Below, in pieces: positions 1 to 6,185 of a stretch of DNA of 64,000 nucleotides. The DNA is from a phage. Where the stretch lies: the sequence record PQ724394.1; one strand, written 5' to 3'. The position numbers and the translations under genes are program-made. The stretch's first letter is position 1, and each line of letters starts with the position of its first letter. A model generated the notes under the pieces. It saw nothing but the letters and a program-made list of their open reading frames with translations, searched no databases and was not told the origin of the DNA.

Positions 1-16
1 CACCTTAGACCCTACT

Positions 17-1390
17 ATGTTGGATTCTTCTCAAAGTTATGGACTTGAATTTATAAAACAAGCTTCTAGGGAAGGCGCGTTGGCCCATTTAGGTATAACT
101 AATGAGATGCTAACACCTGGTACTGAAGGTCCACAAGGCCCTAAAGGAGACCCAGGGCCGCAAGGTATTCAAGGTAACCCGGGTCCTAAAGGAGAAAAGG
201 GCGAACCAGGACCAGCAGGTCCAGAAGGTCCTAAAGGAGACCCGGGTTCACCAGGAAAAGAAGGCCCTCAGGGTTTACAAGGGGCCCAAGGAGAAGTAGG
301 ACCGCAAGGACCACAAGGTCCTATAGGCCCAGCAGGTTTGGTGTGGAAGGGAGCCTGGGATGAATCTACCCAATACTCTAAAGACGATGCAGTTGGATAC
401 CAGGGAGCTTCTTATTTTTGCATCAGTTCTAATACAGGAACAATACCTCCTAGCGAAGGAGTTTGGGCGCTATTGGCTAATATCGGTGCACCAGGTCCTC
501 AAGGACCAACCGGCCCAACCGGCCCTCAAGGTCCACAAGGCGCGCCAGGCCAAGATGGTAATGGGTTTATCTGGGCCGGAAACTGGGCCCTTGGTTCGTC
601 TTATTATATAAACGATTTGGTCCAGTGCGAAGGGTCTTCTTGGATTTGTATCCAGGATAATATAGCAAATAATGATAGTTATCCCGGGAGTGGAGACCTG
701 TGGGCCGATTATTGGAATTTATTTGTAAAAGAAGGGCGTCCAGGAAATCCCGGAGAAGATGGTGCACCTGGAGAGCAAGGCGCCCAAGGACCGCAAGGCG
801 ACCCGGGTCCTAAAGGTGAAAAGGGCGAACCTGGGCCACAAGGTATTCAAGGTCCTATAGGGCCCGCAGGTGCTCCTGGTAAAGATGCAGTATTTGATGT
901 TGATTCTTTAACCCAGTCTCAATTAAAATCTTTATATGATAAACTTTTCCCATTCTATCCACCTAGATATTGGAAAGGCTCTTTAAGATTTGATAAGCCT
1001 CTGAACACTTCAGAGTGGAAGGAAATACGTTTATGGGACCTTAATATGGTTCTTCATGTTCGTATGTATTCGTCTTTAGGCATCCATATAAGGGCTACTA
1101 ATGCGGGTCTTACCAACAGACTTGATATTAAAAGATTTACCAACTATGAAAACGGGATAGAATGCGCCAACTGGAGTAATGTTCTGTGGTCCTCAACTCC
1201 TGAATTATTCGACGATTTGGCTTATTCTAGTGCAAGACAATTTAACCGTTACGAAATATTTGACCGTGATACTAGAAAATACTACACTGTATCTGTGTTT
1301 ATTGTAGGCGGCCCTCTTAATACGACTACAGATATCCCTGTTGAAGTTTTATTTTCTGTCGAAGACCATACTAATATGAGCCCATTTTAA
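17..1390 (+). CDS. Collagen-like repeat protein (three Gly-X-Y blocks separated by Trp-rich inserts, ~190-aa C-terminal globular region); frame is open to the window start so the 5' end may be truncated
   Basis: Translation shows long [10 protein letters not shown]-type triplet runs (about nt 128-337, 488-568, 737-889); two repeated non-collagen inserts with W-x-G-x-W; no stop in frame upstream of the first ATG. Confidence 0.6.
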
Positions 1391-1399
1391 GGAGGTCGA

Positions 1400-2266
1400 A
1401 TGATTACACTTAAAATAAATGGTCCTAGATATGAATTAGTTGGAAGAACTGTAACCTTTTATACCGGGTTTGTATTACCGCCCGGTTCTACTCTAGACGA
1501 TGTAGAAATTAATTGGTATAAAAACGATGTCCATATTCCACAACTTCCTACCGAGGACCCTTTTGAATTAAATTTGTGGGAAGTAGGATTCCCTGCTGCC
1601 GGAACATTTTATGCGACTATAACAAATAAGAAAAGTGGAGAAATAACTAAGAGTAATGAAATAGAACTTGAAATAGGTACCCTTCCAAGAAGGGTTATTT
1701 TAGATATAAATTCAAGACGATTAATATACGCTAATATAGGAGAAACTGTTGCACTTAGGCCATCATGTAGAGTAGAGCCTTCTTATGCGGAAAGGGTTTG
1801 TAGATGGTACAGAGACGGAGTCGAATTATCTAAAGATGAAGATATCGATATATTAATAGACAACTCTAGTAAATTCGGGGAGTATACATTAAAATCTATA
1901 GGAACTTGTGAAGGAGCATATATCCCTGCTTCTGAAGAACTTTTAGTTGAAATAAAACCTAGGGATGATGTATTGCAGTGCCCTTTCATATATGATAACG
2001 ACCTTAATGCTTATTTACCATATGGCGGTGGAAGAAATGAATCGTATATGTGGATAGGTTGGTGGGTATGGGACGAAATAAGAGAAGCCGTTAGATTGGG
2101 AGAAGATTGGACTTTGGATATAAACAACAGCCCATACAAGTATAAATGTGAGTTACAAAAAGTAGCCGACCTTTTGTCTAAGTATCCTGAAGTAGAGATA
2201 CAAGAGTCGAGAAATGGCTACATCTTAGAAAGGAAGGACTTAGTTTACGTCCCTCCTGAAAAATAA
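1400..2266 (+). CDS. Hoc-like paralogue: Ig-like N-terminal region plus Hoc-type C-terminal domain
   Basis: C-terminus SYMWIGWWVWDEI...YPEVEIQESRNGYILER aligns with the Hoc C-terminus SAYIWCGWWVMDEI...YPEVDVQESRNGRIIHR encoded at 2540-3952; RBS aggaggt before ATG; terminator follows. Confidence 0.6.
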   Translation: MITLKINGPRYELVGRTVTFYTGFVLPPGSTLDDVEINWYKNDVHIPQLPTEDPFELNLWEVGFPAAGTFYATITNKKSGEITKSNEIELEIGTLPRRVILDINSRRLIYANIGETVALRPSCRVEPSYAERVCRWYRDGVELSKDEDIDILIDNSSKFGEYTLKSIGTCEGAYIPASEELLVEIKPRDDVLQCPFIYDNDLNAYLPYGGGRNESYMWIGWWVWDEIREAVRLGEDWTLDINNSPYKYKCELQKVADLLSKYPEVEIQESRNGYILERKDLVYVPPEK

Positions 2267-2267
2267 T

Positions 2268-2289
2268 AAAGGGCCTACGGGCCCTTTTT
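2268..2289 (+). terminator. Rho-independent terminator after the collagen-like/Hoc-like gene pair
   Basis: aaa-gggcc-tacg-ggccc-ttttt hairpin followed by T-run. Confidence 0.7.
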
Positions 2290-2454
2290 GGTTTGTAAAA
2301 TTTTATCTATAGTAGCTATTATCCCGAAAAATGAACTAATGCATGAGAAAAGAGCCAATATAGAAGCAAACAACCCACTAGTTAATGAAATTAACGAAAA
2401 CAAAAACAGCACTATAAAGAAAACCAACAACCCTATATCTTTGTTAAATTTCAT
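2275..2454 (-). CDS. Small hydrophobic protein (59 aa, two predicted TM segments), hypothetical
   Basis: Own translation: MKFNKDIGLLVFFIVLFLFSLISLTSGLFASILALFSC...; below the ORF-track size cutoff; lies between two convergent terminators. Confidence 0.3.
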   Translation of the reverse strand: MKFNKDIGLLVFFIVLFLFSLISLTSGLFASILALFSCISSFFGIIATIDKILQTKKGP

Positions 2455-2517
2455 ATATCCACCTATTAAAAATTATTCGTCAATAACTTAATCTCCCGAA
2501 ACACTATCATAAACTAA

Positions 2518-2541
2518 ATAAGGGCCTTGCGGCCCTTTATT
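2518..2541 (-). terminator. Rho-independent terminator downstream of hoc (bidirectional potential)
   Basis: gggcc-ttgc-ggccc hairpin flanked by A/T runs on both sides. Confidence 0.65.
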
Positions 2542-3952
2542 AATAAACGTAATCGTAAATAATTCCAGCATCCAAAGCGGTTCTGTGAATAATTCTACCA
2601 TTACGAGATTCCTGTACATCAACCTCAGGATAATCGGCTACCATTTTTTGAAGGGTATAACGATGGAGATAATATTCACTATCAGGTTCGTCAGTTTTCC
2701 AGTCTTTGCCTTCAAGGGTCATTTTCTGAATTTCGTCCATAACCCACCAACCACACCAAATATAAGCTGAATTACGAACTGGTAGCGGATGAACGTAAGG
2801 TAGTTCGCCCTCTGGTTCAGGAGCTACTTTAGCCGTAATTGTTACATTACCTGTTTTTTTGACAGTCACAGGATTATAGTCGGTAGCCGAAACAACAGCA
2901 GAAACTTCAATAACCTGTGAACCTTCAGCGCTTGTGTCAATTACTAATGTATCCGTAGCACCCACAACAGGTGAACCATCTTTCTTCCAAGAATAAGCAA
3001 AAGTAGCACCACTAGGCGCACCGACTACCGTGGCTTTAAAAGAAGCCGGGATTCCTTCAGAGACAGTAATAGAAGCAGGCGTTAAATTAACAGAAACACC
3101 TGTCATAGTCTTTTTAGTAATTGTTACACTTCCTGTTTTGGTAACGGTTAAATCATTATAATCCGTACCTTTTAGGAGTACCGAAACTTCAATAGAGTAA
3201 GAACCTATTGTAGACGTATCAACAGCAAGAGTATTACTGCTTTCGCCCGGAATAATAGAACCATCTTTCTTCCAAGAATAAGTTGCATTTACGCCGGAAG
3301 GAGCACCAACTACATCCGCTTTAAACTGTGCAGATGAGTCTTTCTCTGTACTAATTGAGGCGGGCGTTAAAGTAACAGAAACACCTGATATAGTTTTCTT
3401 AACAAAAGTTACCGCAACACCTTTAGTAGCGGTACCCGGGTCATATTCAGGGGCGGTAACAGTAACTTCACAGTTCAACGTGTAATTTGCTTCTGCTGCT
3501 TCGGTTACAGTAATAGTTTTACCAGTTTGTCCAGAGATTACGCTGGTGTTACGTTTCCAAACATAAGCAATTGTTGCGCCTGCAGGTGCACCCGTCACGT
3601 TAGCAGTAACAACTTGAGATTGGCCAACTTCTTTAGAAACAGAAATAGGGTCTAAGGCCAAAGAAATAGACATGGTCTTATTAGCTACGGTAACTTCAAA
3701 AGTATCTTCAGCTACCTCAGGTTCGCCTTCAGCCGGAGTAGAAGTTGCTACTACTTTTAAAACTTTCTTACCTGCAGGTGAAGCACCTGTATATTTCAAA
3801 ACATTGGTTGCTTCTGGATTAGAAGCACCATCAATAGACCATACATATGTAATGGTTCCTTCTACAGCTGCACCTGTTGCGGTAGCAGTGTAGTTAGCAC
3901 TTTCGCCTATTTTAATAGACGCTGTGCCGGCTATACTTACAGTAAAAGCCAT
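2540..3952 (-). CDS. hoc: Highly immunogenic outer capsid protein Hoc (expanded, several Ig-like repeats)
   Basis: Repeated Ig-like modules (TYVWSIDG, AYVWKRN, TYSWKKDGS, AYSWKKDGS) and C-terminus matching T4 Hoc as I recall it (PEPEGELPYVHPLP...WCGWWVMDEIQKM...YPEVDVQESRNG). Confidence 0.8.
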   Translation of the reverse strand: MAFTVSIAGTASIKIGESANYTATATGAAVEGTITYVWSIDGASNPEATNVLKYTGASPAGKKVLKVVATSTPAEGEPEVAEDTFEVTVANKTMSISLALDPISVSKEVGQSQVVTANVTGAPAGATIAYVWKRNTSVISGQTGKTITVTEAAEANYTLNCEVTVTAPEYDPGTATKGVAVTFVKKTISGVSVTLTPASISTEKDSSAQFKADVVGAPSGVNATYSWKKDGSIIPGESSNTLAVDTSTIGSYSIEVSVLLKGTDYNDLTVTKTGSVTITKKTMTGVSVNLTPASITVSEGIPASFKATVVGAPSGATFAYSWKKDGSPVVGATDTLVIDTSAEGSQVIEVSAVVSATDYNPVTVKKTGNVTITAKVAPEPEGELPYVHPLPVRNSAYIWCGWWVMDEIQKMTLEGKDWKTDEPDSEYYLHRYTLQKMVADYPEVDVQESRNGRIIHRTALDAGIIYDYVY

Positions 3953-3961
3953 AGTTTACCC

Positions 3962-4633
3962 TTATTTTAAAGTTACAAAAGATGAATTACGTGTTTCACG
4001 TACTAATACTGAGCCATTACGATTGATGTAATAAATCAGACTGAATAATGTTTGGTGGGCAGAAGGGTGTTGGAAATCTTTAGGACGTTCTTTCCAATCA
4101 GGGGTTTCAGAAATCCATTGATAAATCCACCAAGGAACAGTACAGTAACCAGGGTTTTTACCAATAAGCAAAAGATTAGGACTAAAGTTTTCAGGCAAAG
4201 AGAATACAGGTTTTTCCGATTCAATAACCTTGGTTACGGCCTCTTTGAATTTCTCTTCGACAAACGGAACATCTTCTTCAATAATCTCTACCTTAGGAAG
4301 TTCGGCTACCTCAATAACTTCAACTACAGCTTCAGGGGCATCAAATAATAGGGTAGCTTCTTCTTTGGCAGGTTCCGCGCCATCAACAAATTCGTTAGCG
4401 CCTGTAAGTTCGTCGGCGGCATCAATCAAATCAGAAATAGACAAACCTTCGGTTTCTGGAAGTGGTTCATCAGCCAAGGCTTTAAGGCCTTCAGAGATAT
4501 CGATAATCAAATTATCAAACGAACGGGTTTTCTTAAGTTTTAAACCGAATTGTTCGCCGTATTCGATTAACTTAGCTTTAGCTTCTTTTTTATCTTCGAG
4601 TGCACGAAGCTCTTCAATATATTGAGTATCCAT
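3962..4633 (-). CDS. inh: Putative Inh (inhibitor of prohead protease), positional assignment
   Basis: 223 aa acidic protein located between hoc and uvsW as in T4; minus-strand late promoter upstream. Confidence 0.45.
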   Translation of the reverse strand: MDTQYIEELRALEDKKEAKAKLIEYGEQFGLKLKKTRSFDNLIIDISEGLKALADEPLPETEGLSISDLIDAADELTGANEFVDGAEPAKEEATLLFDAPEAVVEVIEVAELPKVEIIEEDVPFVEEKFKEAVTKVIESEKPVFSLPENFSPNLLLIGKNPGYCTVPWWIYQWISETPDWKERPKDFQHPSAHQTLFSLIYYINRNGSVLVRETRNSSFVTLK

Positions 4634-4652
4634 AATTAGTCTCTTGTTGGTG

Positions 4653-4660
4653 TATAAATA
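4653..4660 (+). promoter_or_regulatory. T4-type late promoter (TATAAATA) upstream of uvsW
   Basis: Exact TATAAATA about 29 nt upstream of the uvsW ATG. Confidence 0.55.
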
Positions 4661-4666
4661 TAATTA

Positions 4667-4674
4667 TATTTATA
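4667..4674 (-). promoter_or_regulatory. T4-type late promoter (TATAAATA on minus strand) upstream of inh
   Basis: Reverse complement of tatttata gives TATAAATA about 33 nt upstream of the inh start. Confidence 0.5.
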
Positions 4675-4688
4675 ACTGAGAATTAGAC

Positions 4689-6185
4689 ATGCAAATTCAA
4701 GTACATTTTGATAATTTTAGTCATGTTCGTGTTGAGTGTGATGAATCCACCTTCTACGAACTCAGAGACTATTTCAGCTTTGAAGCTGATGGATATAAAT
4801 TTAACCCTAAATACCGTTACGGGCAATGGGATGGGAGAATTCGTCTTCTAGATTATAACCGTAAACTTCCGTATGGTCTAGTCCCACAAATTAAAAAATT
4901 CGCTGACCAGTTTGAATACTCTCTTTGGATAGACCCACGTATTCTTGAACAGGAAGATATTTCACGTGAAGATTTTGACTCATGGGTAGCTTCACAGGAG
5001 ATTTATTCAGGTTCTACCAGGATTGAGCCACATTGGTATCAGAATGAAGCCGTATACAACGGTCTGACAAAACGTCGTGCAATTCTGAATTTACCTACAT
5101 CTGCAGGTAAATCATTGATTCAGGCGCTCCTGAGTCGATATTACGTTGAGAACTATGAAGGTAAAATTCTTATCTTAGTTCCTACTACTGCACTTGTCGA
5201 TCAGATGATTAATGACTTCATTGATTATCGTTTGTTCCCTAAAGCTGCTATGCTTGGTATTCGTTCAGGTACTGCTCGTGATTCCGATGCAATGATTTAT
5301 GTTTCAACTTATCAAACGGCTATTAAACAACCTAAAGAATGGTTTGCTCAGTTTGGTATGTTTATGAACGACGAATGCCATTTGGCGACAGGTAAATCAA
5401 TTTCTACCATCATCGAAGGCCTTACCAATTGTATGTTTAAATTCGGTTTGTCCGGTTCTTTAAAAGACGGTAAAGCCAATTTAATGCAATATATGGGTTT
5501 GTTTGGTGATGTGTTTAAGCCAGTATCCACTTCACAGTTAATGGAAGAAGGACAGGTTACAGACCTTAAAATCAACAGTATCTTCCTTCGTTATCCGGAT
5601 GAATTCACTGTTAAGATGAAAGGTAAAGATTACCAATCAGAAATCAAGGTCATTACTAAGGCTACTCGTCGTAATAAATGGGTTGCTAATTTAGCTGTTA
5701 AACTCGCTAAGAAAGAAGAGAACGTATTCCTGATGTTTAAAAACATCGAACACGGTAAAACTCTTTTTGAAATGGTTAAAGAGCAACATAAAGAAGTTTA
5801 TTACGTATCAGGTGAAGTTAATACCGAAACGCGTAATGCTCTGAAAGTAATGGCGGAAAATGGTAAGGGTATTATTGTTGTGGCAAGTTATGGTGTGTTC
5901 TCTACTGGTATTTCCGTTAAGAACCTTCACCATGTTGTATTTGCTCATCCAGTAAAATCCAAAATCATTGTACTCCAGACAATTGGTCGTGTACTCCGTA
6001 AACATGCTTCTAAATCAACAGCACAAGTTTGGGACATTATAGACGACATGGGCGTTAAGCCTAAATCAGCAAATGCTAAAAAGAAATATGTTCATTTGAA
6101 TTACGCATTAAAACATGCCTTAGAACGTATTCAACGTTATGCTGACGAGAAATTTAATTACGTAATGAAACAGGTGGATTTATGA
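4689..6185 (+). CDS. uvsW: UvsW RNA-DNA/DNA helicase
   Basis: Near-identical to T4 UvsW over its length (MQIQVHFDNFSHVRVECDESTFYELRDYFSFEADGYKFNP...; helicase motifs LNLPTSAGKS, DECH). Confidence 0.9.
   Translation: MQIQVHFDNFSHVRVECDESTFYELRDYFSFEADGYKFNPKYRYGQWDGRIRLLDYNRKLPYGLVPQIKKFADQFEYSLWIDPRILEQEDISREDFDSWVASQEIYSGSTRIEPHWYQNEAVYNGLTKRRAILNLPTSAGKSLIQALLSRYYVENYEGKILILVPTTALVDQMINDFIDYRLFPKAAMLGIRSGTARDSDAMIYVSTYQTAIKQPKEWFAQFGMFMNDECHLATGKSISTIIEGLTNCMFKFGLSGSLKDGKANLMQYMGLFGDVFKPVSTSQLMEEGQVTDLKINSIFLRYPDEFTVKMKGKDYQSEIKVITKATRRNKWVANLAVKLAKKEENVFLMFKNIEHGKTLFEMVKEQHKEVYYVSGEVNTETRNALKVMAENGKGIIVVASYGVFSTGISVKNLHHVVFAHPVKSKIIVLQTIGRVLRKHASKSTAQVWDIIDDMGVKPKSANAKKKYVHLNYALKHALERIQRYADEKFNYVMKQVDL

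What the first reader, a model, noticed from the sequence alone, without database searches (positions are those of the whole stretch)
17..1390. Collagen-like triple-helix repeat protein at the head-gene/hoc junction
The 457-aa product has three long Gly-X-Y blocks ([13 protein letters not shown]…) separated by two mutually similar Trp-rich inserts ([11 protein letters not shown]… and [12 protein letters not shown]…), followed by a ~190-aa globular C-terminus. Its frame is open to the window start, so it may be longer. It sits on the strand opposite hoc and is immediately followed by a protein with the Hoc C-terminal domain, which suggests a virion-surface or fibre-like appendage; T4 has no collagen-like gene at this position, as far as I recall.
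Basis: partly seen in the sequence, partly recalled or inferred. Interest (0 to 1): 0.7.

Follow-up and report, generated by a model that had tools for sequence, protein, structure and literature searches.

The report
Collagen-like phage fibre paired with Hoc-2
This is a real gene of a T4-like coliphage (Dhakavirus) for a three-chain, collagen-stalked fibre with two sugar-binding modules and an end knob. In related phages it almost always sits next to a second copy of the head-decoration protein Hoc, so it is probably an uncharacterised accessory fibre on the phage head rather than the "tail fiber" that databases call it.

Summary
ORF 17..1390 (+) is real but cut by the window edge. In 96%-identical phages (dhabil, dhaeg, CLB_P2) the gene starts 116 nt upstream and encodes 501 aa.

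Domain order:
- A ~78-aa N-terminal domain (LYGHDGRGxFxGVSLVEV…LGIT) with no detectable relatives.
- Three collagen blocks of 25, 9 and 17 Gly-X-Y triplets, about 44 nm in all.
- Two Trp-rich inserts between the blocks; both are Pfam CBM_5_12 modules.
- A helix and a ~140-aa beta-sandwich knob with no close solved relative.

The family is small: 13 cluster representatives among 1.84 billion proteins, and 26 of 50,697 phage records, all Straboviridae. The stalk varies from no collagen to three CBMs. The knob is sometimes swapped, while the N-terminal domain is kept.

The main new result is the pairing with a distinct Hoc paralogue, "Hoc-2" (window 1400..2266). Hoc-2 keeps T4 Hoc's capsid-binding domain. 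The two genes are adjacent and co-directional in at least ten distinct genomic contexts, once in reversed order and once in a phage with no main hoc.

Best reading, inferred and not shown: a head-displayed adhesion fibre docked through Hoc-2. No virion, expression or binding data exist. Homologues have been in GenBank since JS10 as "tail fiber-like protein", and I found none characterised.

The parts
2..118 (+). C-terminal half (aa 40-78 of 501) of the conserved N-terminal 'anchor' domain. The gene's first ~39 codons lie upstream of the window.
   Evidence: The frame is open to position 2. The orthologues dhabil_240 and CLB_P2 start 116 nt upstream. Family alignments A1 and A4 show invariant G-H-x-G-x-G. 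The A4 profile gave no PDB hit at E<=10, and the domain alone gave no significant PHROG hit.
119..334 (+). Collagen block 1 (24 Gly-X-Y triplets; the run counts 25 with GLV of the next module).
335..484 (+). Trp-rich insert 1, a CBM_5_12-type module ([28 protein letters not shown]…WALLA).
   Evidence: Pfam PF02839, 26.6 bits alone against a gathering score of 26.2. This is the module conserved in nearly all family members.
485..562 (+). Collagen block 2 (8-9 triplets).
563..733 (+). Trp-rich insert 2, a second CBM_5_12-type module ([30 protein letters not shown]…).
   Evidence: Pfam PF02839, 23.1 bits alone; 32% identical to insert 1. It is present only in the Dhakavirus/CGG4-1 branch. It is the most variable part against CLB_P2.
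734..883 (+). Collagen block 3 (about 17 triplets).
884..1390 (+). C-terminal domain and stop codon: a conserved helix ([30 protein letters not shown]) followed by a ~140-aa beta-sandwich knob.
1391..1399 (+). 9-nt spacer holding the Shine-Dalgarno sequence (GGAGG) for the next gene. The two genes are an operon-like pair.
   Evidence: Sequence read. In other phages the two genes overlap or abut.
1400..2266 (+). Hoc-2, a 288-aa Hoc paralogue with two Ig-like domains and the Hoc capsid-binding C-terminal domain. It is the proposed capsid adaptor for the fibre.
   Evidence: PHROG 1149 'Hoc-like head decoration' at 1.1e-42. It aligns to T4 Hoc 297-365 at E=1.2e-14. W, V, D, W and E-S-R-x-G are invariant across Hoc and Hoc-2. 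All 24 phage records with Hoc-2 Ig domains also carry the fibre.
2268..2289 (+). GC-rich hairpin (AAAGGGCC-tacg-GGCCCTTT) followed by a T-run: a terminator-like end of the fibre/hoc-2 pair.
2540..3952 (-). Main hoc (470 aa), convergent with the pair. Given as context, not as part of the cassette.

Best explanation
The gene encodes an accessory virion fibre that assembles as a homotrimer.

**Proposed assembly and anatomy**
- The C-terminal helix and beta-sandwich knob probably nucleate trimerisation.
- The three Gly-X-Y blocks then zip into about 44 nm of collagen triple helix.
- Two nodes of CBM_5_12 carbohydrate-binding modules interrupt the helix.
- The conserved ~78-aa N-terminal domain is the attachment end.

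**Proposed location and function**
- The fibre is made together with the adjacent Hoc paralogue Hoc-2.
- Hoc-2's C-terminal domain binds the centre of gp23 hexamers as T4 Hoc does.
- Hoc-2's conserved first Ig domain is proposed to hold the fibre's N-terminal domain.
- The fibre would then project about 50 nm from the head.
- It would act as a reversible, glycan-directed adhesin. It would bind host surface polysaccharide or environmental glycans such as mucus, and so raise the chance of productive tail contact.

**Shown here**
- The gene, its domain map and the family.
- The conserved linkage to Hoc-2.
- Retention of the Hoc capsid-binding domain in Hoc-2.

**Inferred, not shown**
- Trimer formation.
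- Presence in the virion.
- Docking on Hoc-2.
- Glycan binding.
For: **Fibre anatomy**
- 51 uninterrupted Gly-X-Y triplets, with Pfam Collagen at 5.9e-24.
- Two CBM_5_12 modules.
- A well-modelled C-terminal helix plus beta-sandwich.

**Family behaviour typical of a fibre with an N-terminal anchor and a distal knob**
- The N-terminal domain is 73% identical where the knob is only 33-47%.
- The stalk ranges from none (Pantoea phage Phynn, 239 aa) to three CBMs.
- JS10, IME08 and P0018 keep the N-terminal domain but carry a different knob.

**Linkage to Hoc-2**
- The fibre gene is adjacent to and co-directional with a Hoc-2 gene in the window's Dhakavirus group and in JS10, ABTNLsp5 and CGG4-1.
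- The same holds in Cronus, FBB1, Phynn, Aeromonas 65 (a different genome region), GomatiRiver_11 and three metagenomic contigs.
- In one of those contigs (L015) Hoc-2 comes first. In another (L017) there is no main hoc. A third (L021) has unrelated flanks.
- All 24 of 50,697 phage records with Hoc-2 Ig domains carry the fibre's N-terminal domain.
- The minimal conserved set is the fibre N-terminal domain plus knob, and Hoc-2 Ig domain 1 plus its capsid-binding domain.

**Hoc-2 as a capsid binder**
- Hoc-2 keeps the T4 Hoc capsid-binding domain.

**Pattern of variation**
- Variation among near-identical phages sits in the Hoc-2 Ig region and CBM2, while Hoc-2's capsid-binding part is invariant.

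**Precedents**
- SPP1 gp12 is a collagen-like trimer on hexamer centres (PMC5292684, PMC7602432).
- E. coli prophage collagen-like proteins are trimeric dumbbells with a C-terminal trimerisation domain and a proposed N-terminal virion-attachment domain (PMC3368898).
- In phage 7-7-1 an Ig-domain protein is proposed as the base of capsid fibres (PMC12796354).
Against: - There is no direct evidence that the protein is in virions or on the head.
- PHROG and RefSeq file the family under 'tail fiber protein'. The collagen+CBM_5_12 stalk recurs in proteins with genuine tail-fibre domains: T7 tail-fibre N-terminus, Collar and peptidase S74.
- Hoc is a monomer on a hexamer, so docking a trimer on it needs an unexplained stoichiometry.
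- IME08 has a Hoc-2 87% identical to the window's, but its fibre gene is elsewhere. That gene has a divergent N-terminal domain and an in-frame stop.
- No canonical T4 late promoter (TATAAATA) lies in the 160 nt upstream in the dhabil, CLB_P2 and JS10 lineage. ABTNLsp5 and Phynn do have one.
- AF2 does not fold the N-terminal domain (pLDDT ~47), so nothing structural supports the proposed docking.
- The CBM_5_12 scores sit at the family threshold when each module is taken alone.
Confidence: 0.5

Rival explanations
1. It is an accessory tail, baseplate or neck fibre, as databases label it. The N-terminal domain would dock on a tail or neck component. Hoc-2 would be an independent extra head decoration that travels with the fibre because both sit in a plastic, mobile region.
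For: - PHROG 5073 'tail fiber protein' scores 7.5e-86, and many other tail-fibre PHROGs match the stalk.
- The same collagen+CBM_5_12 stalk occurs in proteins with T7 tail-fibre, Collar and S74 domains.
- Experimentally studied prophage collagen-like proteins are tail fibres (PMC3368898).
- In IME08 the fibre and hoc-2 genes are separated.
Against: - The PHROG match is carried by the collagen and CBM parts. The N-terminal domain alone matches no PHROG, Pfam or PDB entry, including the solved T4 baseplate, neck and fibre proteins.
- Adjacency with Hoc-2 persists in at least ten different contexts, with reversed order and in different genome regions. Chance hitch-hiking does not explain this.
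- The gene never lies in the tail-fibre cluster in the loci examined.
Confidence: 0.25
2. It is a head fibre that binds the capsid lattice directly through its own N-terminal domain, for example at quasi-threefold sites or hexamer centres as SPP1 gp12 does. Hoc-2 would be a co-regulated second decoration rather than an adaptor.
For: - A trimer fits threefold or quasi-threefold capsid sites better than it fits a monomeric Hoc.
- SPP1 gp12 is a precedent (PMC5292684).
- The head-gene neighbourhood and co-expression with Hoc-2 are equally compatible with this reading.
Against: - It does not explain why a dedicated Hoc paralogue with a conserved first Ig domain always accompanies the fibre, even in a phage without a main hoc.
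- If the fibre bound hexamer centres, it would compete with Hoc and Hoc-2.
Confidence: 0.13
3. It is not a virion component. It could be a protein acting inside or on the infected cell, or released at lysis to bind glycans or debris. It could also be a decaying mobile gene.
For: - There is no proteomic evidence and no clear late promoter in the window's lineage.
- The cassette is sporadic and is degraded in PspYZU05, AP1 and IME08.
Against: - Intact long ORFs with conserved domain order persist across several genera (Dhakavirus, Gelderlandvirus, Roskildevirus, Ishigurovirus) and in unclassified Aeromonas and Pantoea phages.
- The gene is tightly coupled to a structural-type (Hoc) gene.
- In Cronus, FBB1 and IME08 it lies directly downstream of gp24 in the late head operon.
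Confidence: 0.08

Closest known systems
Bacillus phage SPP1 gp12 (collagen-like capsid decoration protein)
   Same: It is a phage-encoded collagen-like trimer that decorates the capsid, binding hexamer centres. It is dispensable and is thought to act in adhesion (PMC5292684, PMC7602432).
   Different: As I recall, gp12 is a very small protein with a short collagen motif and helical termini that binds the capsid directly. It has no CBM modules, no beta-sandwich knob and no Hoc-type partner. I saw no sequence relationship beyond Gly-X-Y, and gp12 itself was not compared here.
E. coli O157 prophage collagen-like proteins EPclA-D (PfN-PCoil-Col-PfC tail fibres)
   Same: They share the architecture and logic. 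An N-terminal globular domain is proposed as the virion attachment site and is monomeric on its own. A collagen triple helix is stable without hydroxyproline. A C-terminal globular domain trimerises, and modules are shuffled between proteins (PMC3368898).
   Different: The N- and C-terminal domains differ; no Pfam, PHROG or PDB link was found for either domain here. EPcl proteins are tail fibres of lambdoid prophages, whereas this family is confined to T4-like phages and is linked to a Hoc paralogue.
T4 Hoc (highly immunogenic outer capsid protein)
   Same: The partner gene Hoc-2 is a true Hoc-family member with Ig-like domains and the conserved capsid-binding C-terminal domain. The cassette sits beside hoc.
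   Different: The collagen-like protein itself has no Hoc domain. Hoc-2 forms a separate subgroup (conserved 'PAAGxYY' first Ig domain; 'RFKYKC' in the C-terminal domain) that occurs only together with the fibre.
Collagen-stalk plus C-terminal trimeric knob proteins (Bacillus BclA, C1q; TRAF/MATH; adenovirus fibre knob)
   Same: The overall design is the same: a trimeric stalk ending in a beta-sandwich knob. The best Foldseek PDB hits for the knob are SPOP MATH domains and the adenovirus 52 short-fibre knob.
CBM family 5/12 chitin- and cellulose-binding modules of bacterial glycoside hydrolases
   Same: The sequence matches Pfam PF02839 with the typical W..W…Y..GD.V.Y.G..Y pattern. There is a weak profile match to the chitinase A1 chitin-binding domain, 1ed7.
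   Different: Here the modules are embedded in a collagen trimer of a phage protein rather than attached to an enzyme. The ligand is unknown, and each module alone scores at the family threshold.

Membership tests
Collagen triple-helix repeat proteins (Pfam PF01391) | Long uninterrupted Gly-X-Y repeats rich in Pro. | tested here: met
   Runs of 25, 9 and 17 triplets; Pro is the commonest residue in X and second to Gln in Y; Pfam E=5.9e-24; 0 of 2000 shuffles reach a run of 8 or more.
Collagen triple-helix repeat proteins (Pfam PF01391) | Formation of a homotrimeric triple helix. | not testable with these tools
   This needs CD, SEC-MALLS or multimer modelling. It is inferred from EPclA and SPP1 gp12 (PMC3368898, PMC5292684).
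CBM_5_12 carbohydrate-binding modules (Pfam PF02839) | Sequence match above the Pfam gathering score. | tested here: met
   The whole protein scores 38.2 bits against a gathering score of 26.2. Module 1 alone scores 26.6 and module 2 alone 23.1.
CBM_5_12 carbohydrate-binding modules (Pfam PF02839) | Binding to chitin, cellulose or another glycan. | not testable with these tools
Hoc family (T4 highly immunogenic outer capsid protein) | C-terminal capsid-binding domain with the conserved WWV.DE … ESRNG signature. | tested here: not met
   The collagen-like protein has none. The neighbouring gene at 1400..2266 does.
Phage tail fibre proteins (PHROG 5073 and RefSeq label 'tail fiber protein') | Sequence match to the family profile. 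| tested here: met
   phrog_5073 scores 7.5e-86 over aa 3-226 of the full-length orthologue. The isolated N-terminal domain gives no PHROG hit, so collagen and CBM carry much of the score.
Phage tail fibre proteins (PHROG 5073 and RefSeq label 'tail fiber protein') | Attachment to the tail or baseplate and a role in host recognition. | not testable with these tools
   I found no experimental paper. Gene context points to the head module instead.
Capsid decoration or head-fibre proteins (SPP1 gp12, phi29 gp8.5 type) | Physical presence on the capsid surface. | not testable with these tools
   There is only indirect evidence: obligate linkage to Hoc-2 and location in the head-gene region.
C1q/TNF-like or MATH/TRAF-like trimeric knobs | Fold match of the C-terminal domain. 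| tested here: inconclusive

The most novel reading that the evidence does not exclude
Hoc-2 is a dedicated adaptor. Its C-terminal domain occupies gp23 hexamer centres, and its first Ig domain holds the N-terminal domain of the collagen fibre. Some T4-like phages would then carry tens of ~50-nm glycan-binding 'hairs' on the head. This would be a two-component, modular head-fibre system with swappable stalk and knob, not so far described for Straboviridae.
Probability: 0.4. Interest if true: 0.75.

Novelty: new variant of a known kind. Interest (0 to 1): 0.58.

Why it matters
T4-like phages are the best-studied tailed phages. Their capsid decoration proteins Hoc and Soc are used for antigen display and underlie the model of phage adherence to mucus.

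A natural Hoc-anchored collagen fibre with carbohydrate-binding modules would add a second adhesion device on the head. It could help explain differences in host or environment targeting among otherwise near-identical therapeutic phages: JS10, CLB_P2 and dhabil carry it, while JS98-type relatives do not.

It would also offer a ready-made long spacer for capsid display. At the least, the 'tail fiber protein' label now spread by annotation pipelines has no experimental basis that I could find and may be wrong.

Tried and rejected
**Searches that found little or nothing**
- The word-indexed protein search with the C-terminal domain found nothing. The exhaustive HMMER search was needed and gave only 13 representatives.
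- The single-sequence AF2 model of the window's own C-terminal domain was poor (pLDDT 57). It was replaced by an alignment-based model of family member P0009.
- The PDB profile search with the whole family returned only collagens.
- The N-terminal profile returned nothing at E<=10.
- The afdb50 fold library was unavailable.
- IMG/VR and metagenome scans with the N-terminal motif added only one new locus.

**Literature**
- Seven searches found no paper on this protein or on a fibre/Hoc-2 pair.
- One further search was wasted on 'post hoc' matches.
- Sathaliyawala et al. 2010 on Hoc is not held.

**Readings considered and rejected**
- A C1q/TNF-like knob as in BclA: not among the fold hits.
- The ATG at 17 as the true start: it has no ribosome-binding site, and the orthologues start upstream.
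- A link to gp24 duplication: the cassette occurs with one or two gp24 copies.

**Tests with no clear or useful outcome**
- A canonical T4 late promoter or a sigma-70 promoter upstream in dhabil: no clear site.
- A mirror-tree test of fibre N-terminal domain against Hoc-2: not run, because adjacent genes share history anyway.

Full report
**What the window is.** Window 1-4700 is 96% identical over its full length to Escherichia phages dhabil and dhaeg. It is 95-96% identical to CLB_P2 and to 'phage Ec2-ASingh'. Those with a taxonomy on record (dhabil, CLB_P2, OZ035781) are Dhakavirus (Straboviridae, Tevenvirinae). The local gene order is [fibre gene] → [hoc-like gene] → | ← hoc ← inh | uvsW →.

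**Checking the observation.**
- The ORF at 17..1390 (+) exists, and its frame is open back to position 2.
- In dhabil and CLB_P2 the orthologous gene is 1506 nt (501 aa). It starts 116 nt upstream of window position 1 behind a good Shine-Dalgarno sequence.
- The window therefore lacks about 39 codons, and the ATG at 17 is internal Met45.
- The three collagen blocks are nt 119-343 (25 triplets), 485-565 (9) and 734-886 (17). That is 51 triplets, or about 44 nm of triple helix at 0.286 nm per residue.
- No residue shuffle out of 2000 gave a run of 8 or more triplets. Pfam Collagen scores E=5.9e-24.
- The two Trp-rich inserts are 32% identical to each other (E=2e-8).
- The following gene (1400..2266) carries the Hoc C-terminal domain, and the main hoc gene is on the other strand.
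- T4 has 24-rnlB-24.2-24.3-hoc-inh with nothing comparable.

**Anatomy.** The Trp-rich inserts are Pfam CBM_5_12 carbohydrate-binding modules. The whole protein scores 38.2 bits, and the modules alone score 26.6 and 23.1 bits against a gathering score of 26.2. The full-length map, from orthologue P0014, is:

| Part | Residues |
|---|---|
| N-terminal domain | 1-78 |
| Collagen block 1 | 79-150 |
| CBM1 | 151-200 |
| Collagen block 2 | 201-226 |
| CBM2 | 227-283 |
| Collagen block 3 | 284-333 |
| C-terminal domain | 334-501 |

The C-terminal domain matches no Pfam or PHROG family. The window's own C-terminal domain modelled poorly without an alignment. An alignment-based AF2 model of the collagen-free family member P0009 gives a helix followed by a ten-stranded beta-sandwich, with pLDDT 84-93.

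Fold searches find no close solved relative:
- The best Foldseek PDB hits are SPOP MATH domains (E~2e-3, TM~0.4) and an adenovirus short-fibre knob.
- In the viral structure library the hits are family members and a few other phage collagen-like or tail-fibre-like proteins.

The N-terminal domain (consensus LYGHDGRGxFxGVSLVEV…F.DIL…YG..F…AL..LGIT) is not folded confidently by AF2 as a monomer (pLDDT ~47). It has no hit in PDB at E<=10, and the isolated domain has no significant PHROG hit. Scans of whole family members showed no Pfam family over it.

**The family.**
- An exhaustive HMMER scan of 1.84 billion cluster representatives finds only 13 with the C-terminal domain.
- tblastn finds the C-terminal domain in 19 of 50,697 phage records and the N-terminal domain in 26. 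Every record whose taxonomy I read is Straboviridae, and all are phages of enterobacteria, Aeromonas, Erwinia, Pantoea or Pseudomonas.
- Members share the N-terminal domain and usually the helix and knob. The stalk ranges from none (Pantoea phage Phynn, 239 aa) to long collagen with three CBM modules.
- JS10 gp176, IME08 gp169 and metagenomic P0018 keep the N-terminal domain but end in a different C-terminal domain.
- Against relatives, the N-terminal domain stays 73% identical where the knob has dropped to 33-47%.
- A conserved N-terminal end, a length-variable stalk and a fast-diverging or swapped distal knob are the signature of a phage fibre anchored by its N-terminus.
- The collagen+CBM_5_12 stalk alone is widespread in phage and prophage fibre proteins with other termini. 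That explains the strong but uninformative PHROG 'tail fiber protein' match.

**The main finding: a conserved pair with Hoc-2.** The neighbour at 1400..2266 is a Hoc paralogue with two Ig-like domains and the capsid-binding domain.
- The capsid-binding domain aligns to T4 Hoc residues 297-365 (PDB 5vf3_Z, E=1.2e-14).
- The W-V-x-D … W … E-S-R-x-G positions are invariant across Hoc and Hoc-2.
- Hoc-2 proteins form their own subgroup with a conserved first Ig domain (…PAAGxYY…SNxIxLEIG).

The fibre gene and a Hoc-2 gene are adjacent and co-directional, often overlapping, in the following contexts:

| Context | Arrangement |
|---|---|
| dhabil, CLB_P2 and the window | between 24.3 and hoc |
| JS10 | same locus |
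| ABTNLsp5 | same locus |
| Salmonella phage CGG4-1 | same locus |
| Erwinia phages Cronus and FBB1 | directly after gp24 |
| Pantoea phage Phynn | different region |
| Aeromonas phage 65 | next to tk |
| GomatiRiver_11 | fibre → Hoc-2, beside hoc and inh |
| Metagenomic contig L015 | a short Hoc-2 precedes the fibre |
| Metagenomic contig L017 | no main hoc at all |
| Metagenomic contig L021 | unrelated flanks |

All 24 phage records that contain Hoc-2-type Ig domains also carry the fibre's N-terminal domain; for IME08 this needed manual inspection.

The exceptions are decay products:
- PspYZU05 has one deletion spanning both genes.
- AP1 has only a 78-aa remnant.
- IME08 has its fibre gene elsewhere, with an in-frame stop.

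Across all versions, the parts always kept are the fibre's N-terminal domain and a knob, plus Hoc-2's first Ig domain and its capsid-binding domain.

In the window the pair looks like one transcription unit. A 9-nt spacer holds GGAGG, and a terminator-like hairpin lies at 2268-2289.

**Mechanism proposed.**
- By analogy with experimentally studied phage collagen-like proteins, the C-terminal domain would trimerise the chains and nucleate the triple helix (PMC3368898).
- The N-terminal domain is the attachment end.
- The linkage data make Hoc-2 the most economical attachment partner. Its C-terminal domain would sit on gp23 hexamer centres as in T4, and its first Ig domain would hold the fibre.
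- The CBM nodes and the knob would give weak, multivalent glycan binding, as proposed for Hoc, phi29 head fibres and SPP1 gp12 (PMC7602432, PMC5292684).
- Sequence differences among near-identical phages fit this picture. They cluster in the Hoc-2 Ig region (nt 1400-1900) and, against CLB_P2, in CBM2 and collagen block 3. Hoc-2's capsid-binding part is invariant.

Every step from trimerisation onward is inference.

**Weak points.**
- No virion proteomics, imaging or expression data were found.
- The trimer-on-monomer stoichiometry is unexplained.
- There is no canonical late promoter upstream in this lineage.
- IME08 uncouples the two genes.
- The CBM scores sit at the family threshold when each module is taken alone.

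**Rivals.** The rivals are an accessory tail or neck fibre, a direct capsid binder, and a non-virion protein. They are scored in the rival section.

**Novelty.** The gene is not new to databases. JS10's 'tail fiber-like protein' is a long-standing GenBank entry, and RefSeq now calls the family 'tail fiber protein'. I found no characterisation of it and no description of the fibre/Hoc-2 pair. It is a new variant of known kinds, namely phage collagen-like fibres and capsid decoration or head fibres. Both terminal domains are undescribed, and it has a dedicated Hoc paralogue as a likely adaptor.

Noticed in passing
window 2275..2454 (-): A 59-aa, strongly hydrophobic ORF (MKFNKDIGLLVFFIVLFLFSLISLTSGLF…) with a GGTGGA ribosome-binding site lies between hoc-2 and hoc. 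Relatives annotate this stretch inconsistently: a + strand ORF in CLB_P2 and a different - strand ORF in dhabil.
   Followed up: partly
window 2268-2289 and 2520-2537: Two near-palindromic GC-rich hairpins (AAAGGGCC-tacg-GGCCCTTT and AAGGGCC-ttgc-GGCCCTT) flank the small ORF. They lie just past the ends of hoc-2 (+) and hoc (-). They are likely terminators for the convergent units.
   Followed up: partly
L009 (IME08) 1112-2508: In IME08 the fibre gene sits directly after gp24b, not next to hoc-2. It is split by an in-frame stop into a 68-aa N-terminal-domain ORF and the annotated 395-aa 'tail fiber protein', which starts at a non-ATG codon. This could be a pseudogene, a sequencing error or readthrough.
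   Followed up: partly
L012 (Pseudomonas phage PspYZU05) 4489-5153: Remnants of both cassette genes lie side by side: the fibre N-terminal domain in two small ORFs, then a Hoc-2 lacking its first Ig domain. This looks like a single internal deletion across the gene pair.
   Followed up: partly
L017 (metagenomic contig SRR23814683_2235) 4232-6142: A T4-like phage in which the fibre/Hoc-2 pair abuts inh and no conventional hoc is present. Hoc-2 would be its only Hoc.
   Followed up: no
window 500-900 vs L002 (CLB_P2): CBM2 and the start of collagen block 3 are mosaic between otherwise about 98%-identical phages. CLB_P2 carries the P0001/P0015-type CBM2 (NWDPG.PY.VNDLV… RGD.WVDYW), which suggests recombination or diversifying change in this module.
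   Followed up: partly
window 1400-1990: The Hoc-2 Ig region of the window is only 93.9% identical in protein to all five closest phages, while the flanking fibre knob is 98-100% identical. Nucleotide mismatches peak at 1701-1800 (20 per 100 nt).
   Followed up: partly
L001/L002 1891-4454; L003; L004; L010: Several of these phages carry two tandem gp24 (capsid vertex) paralogues. This does not correlate with presence of the cassette, since L015 and L017 have a single gp24.
   Followed up: partly
P0010 (164 aa, metagenomic): One protein consists of the helix and knob domain alone, with no N-terminal domain or stalk. It could be a split gene, a fragment or a free-standing knob.
   Followed up: no
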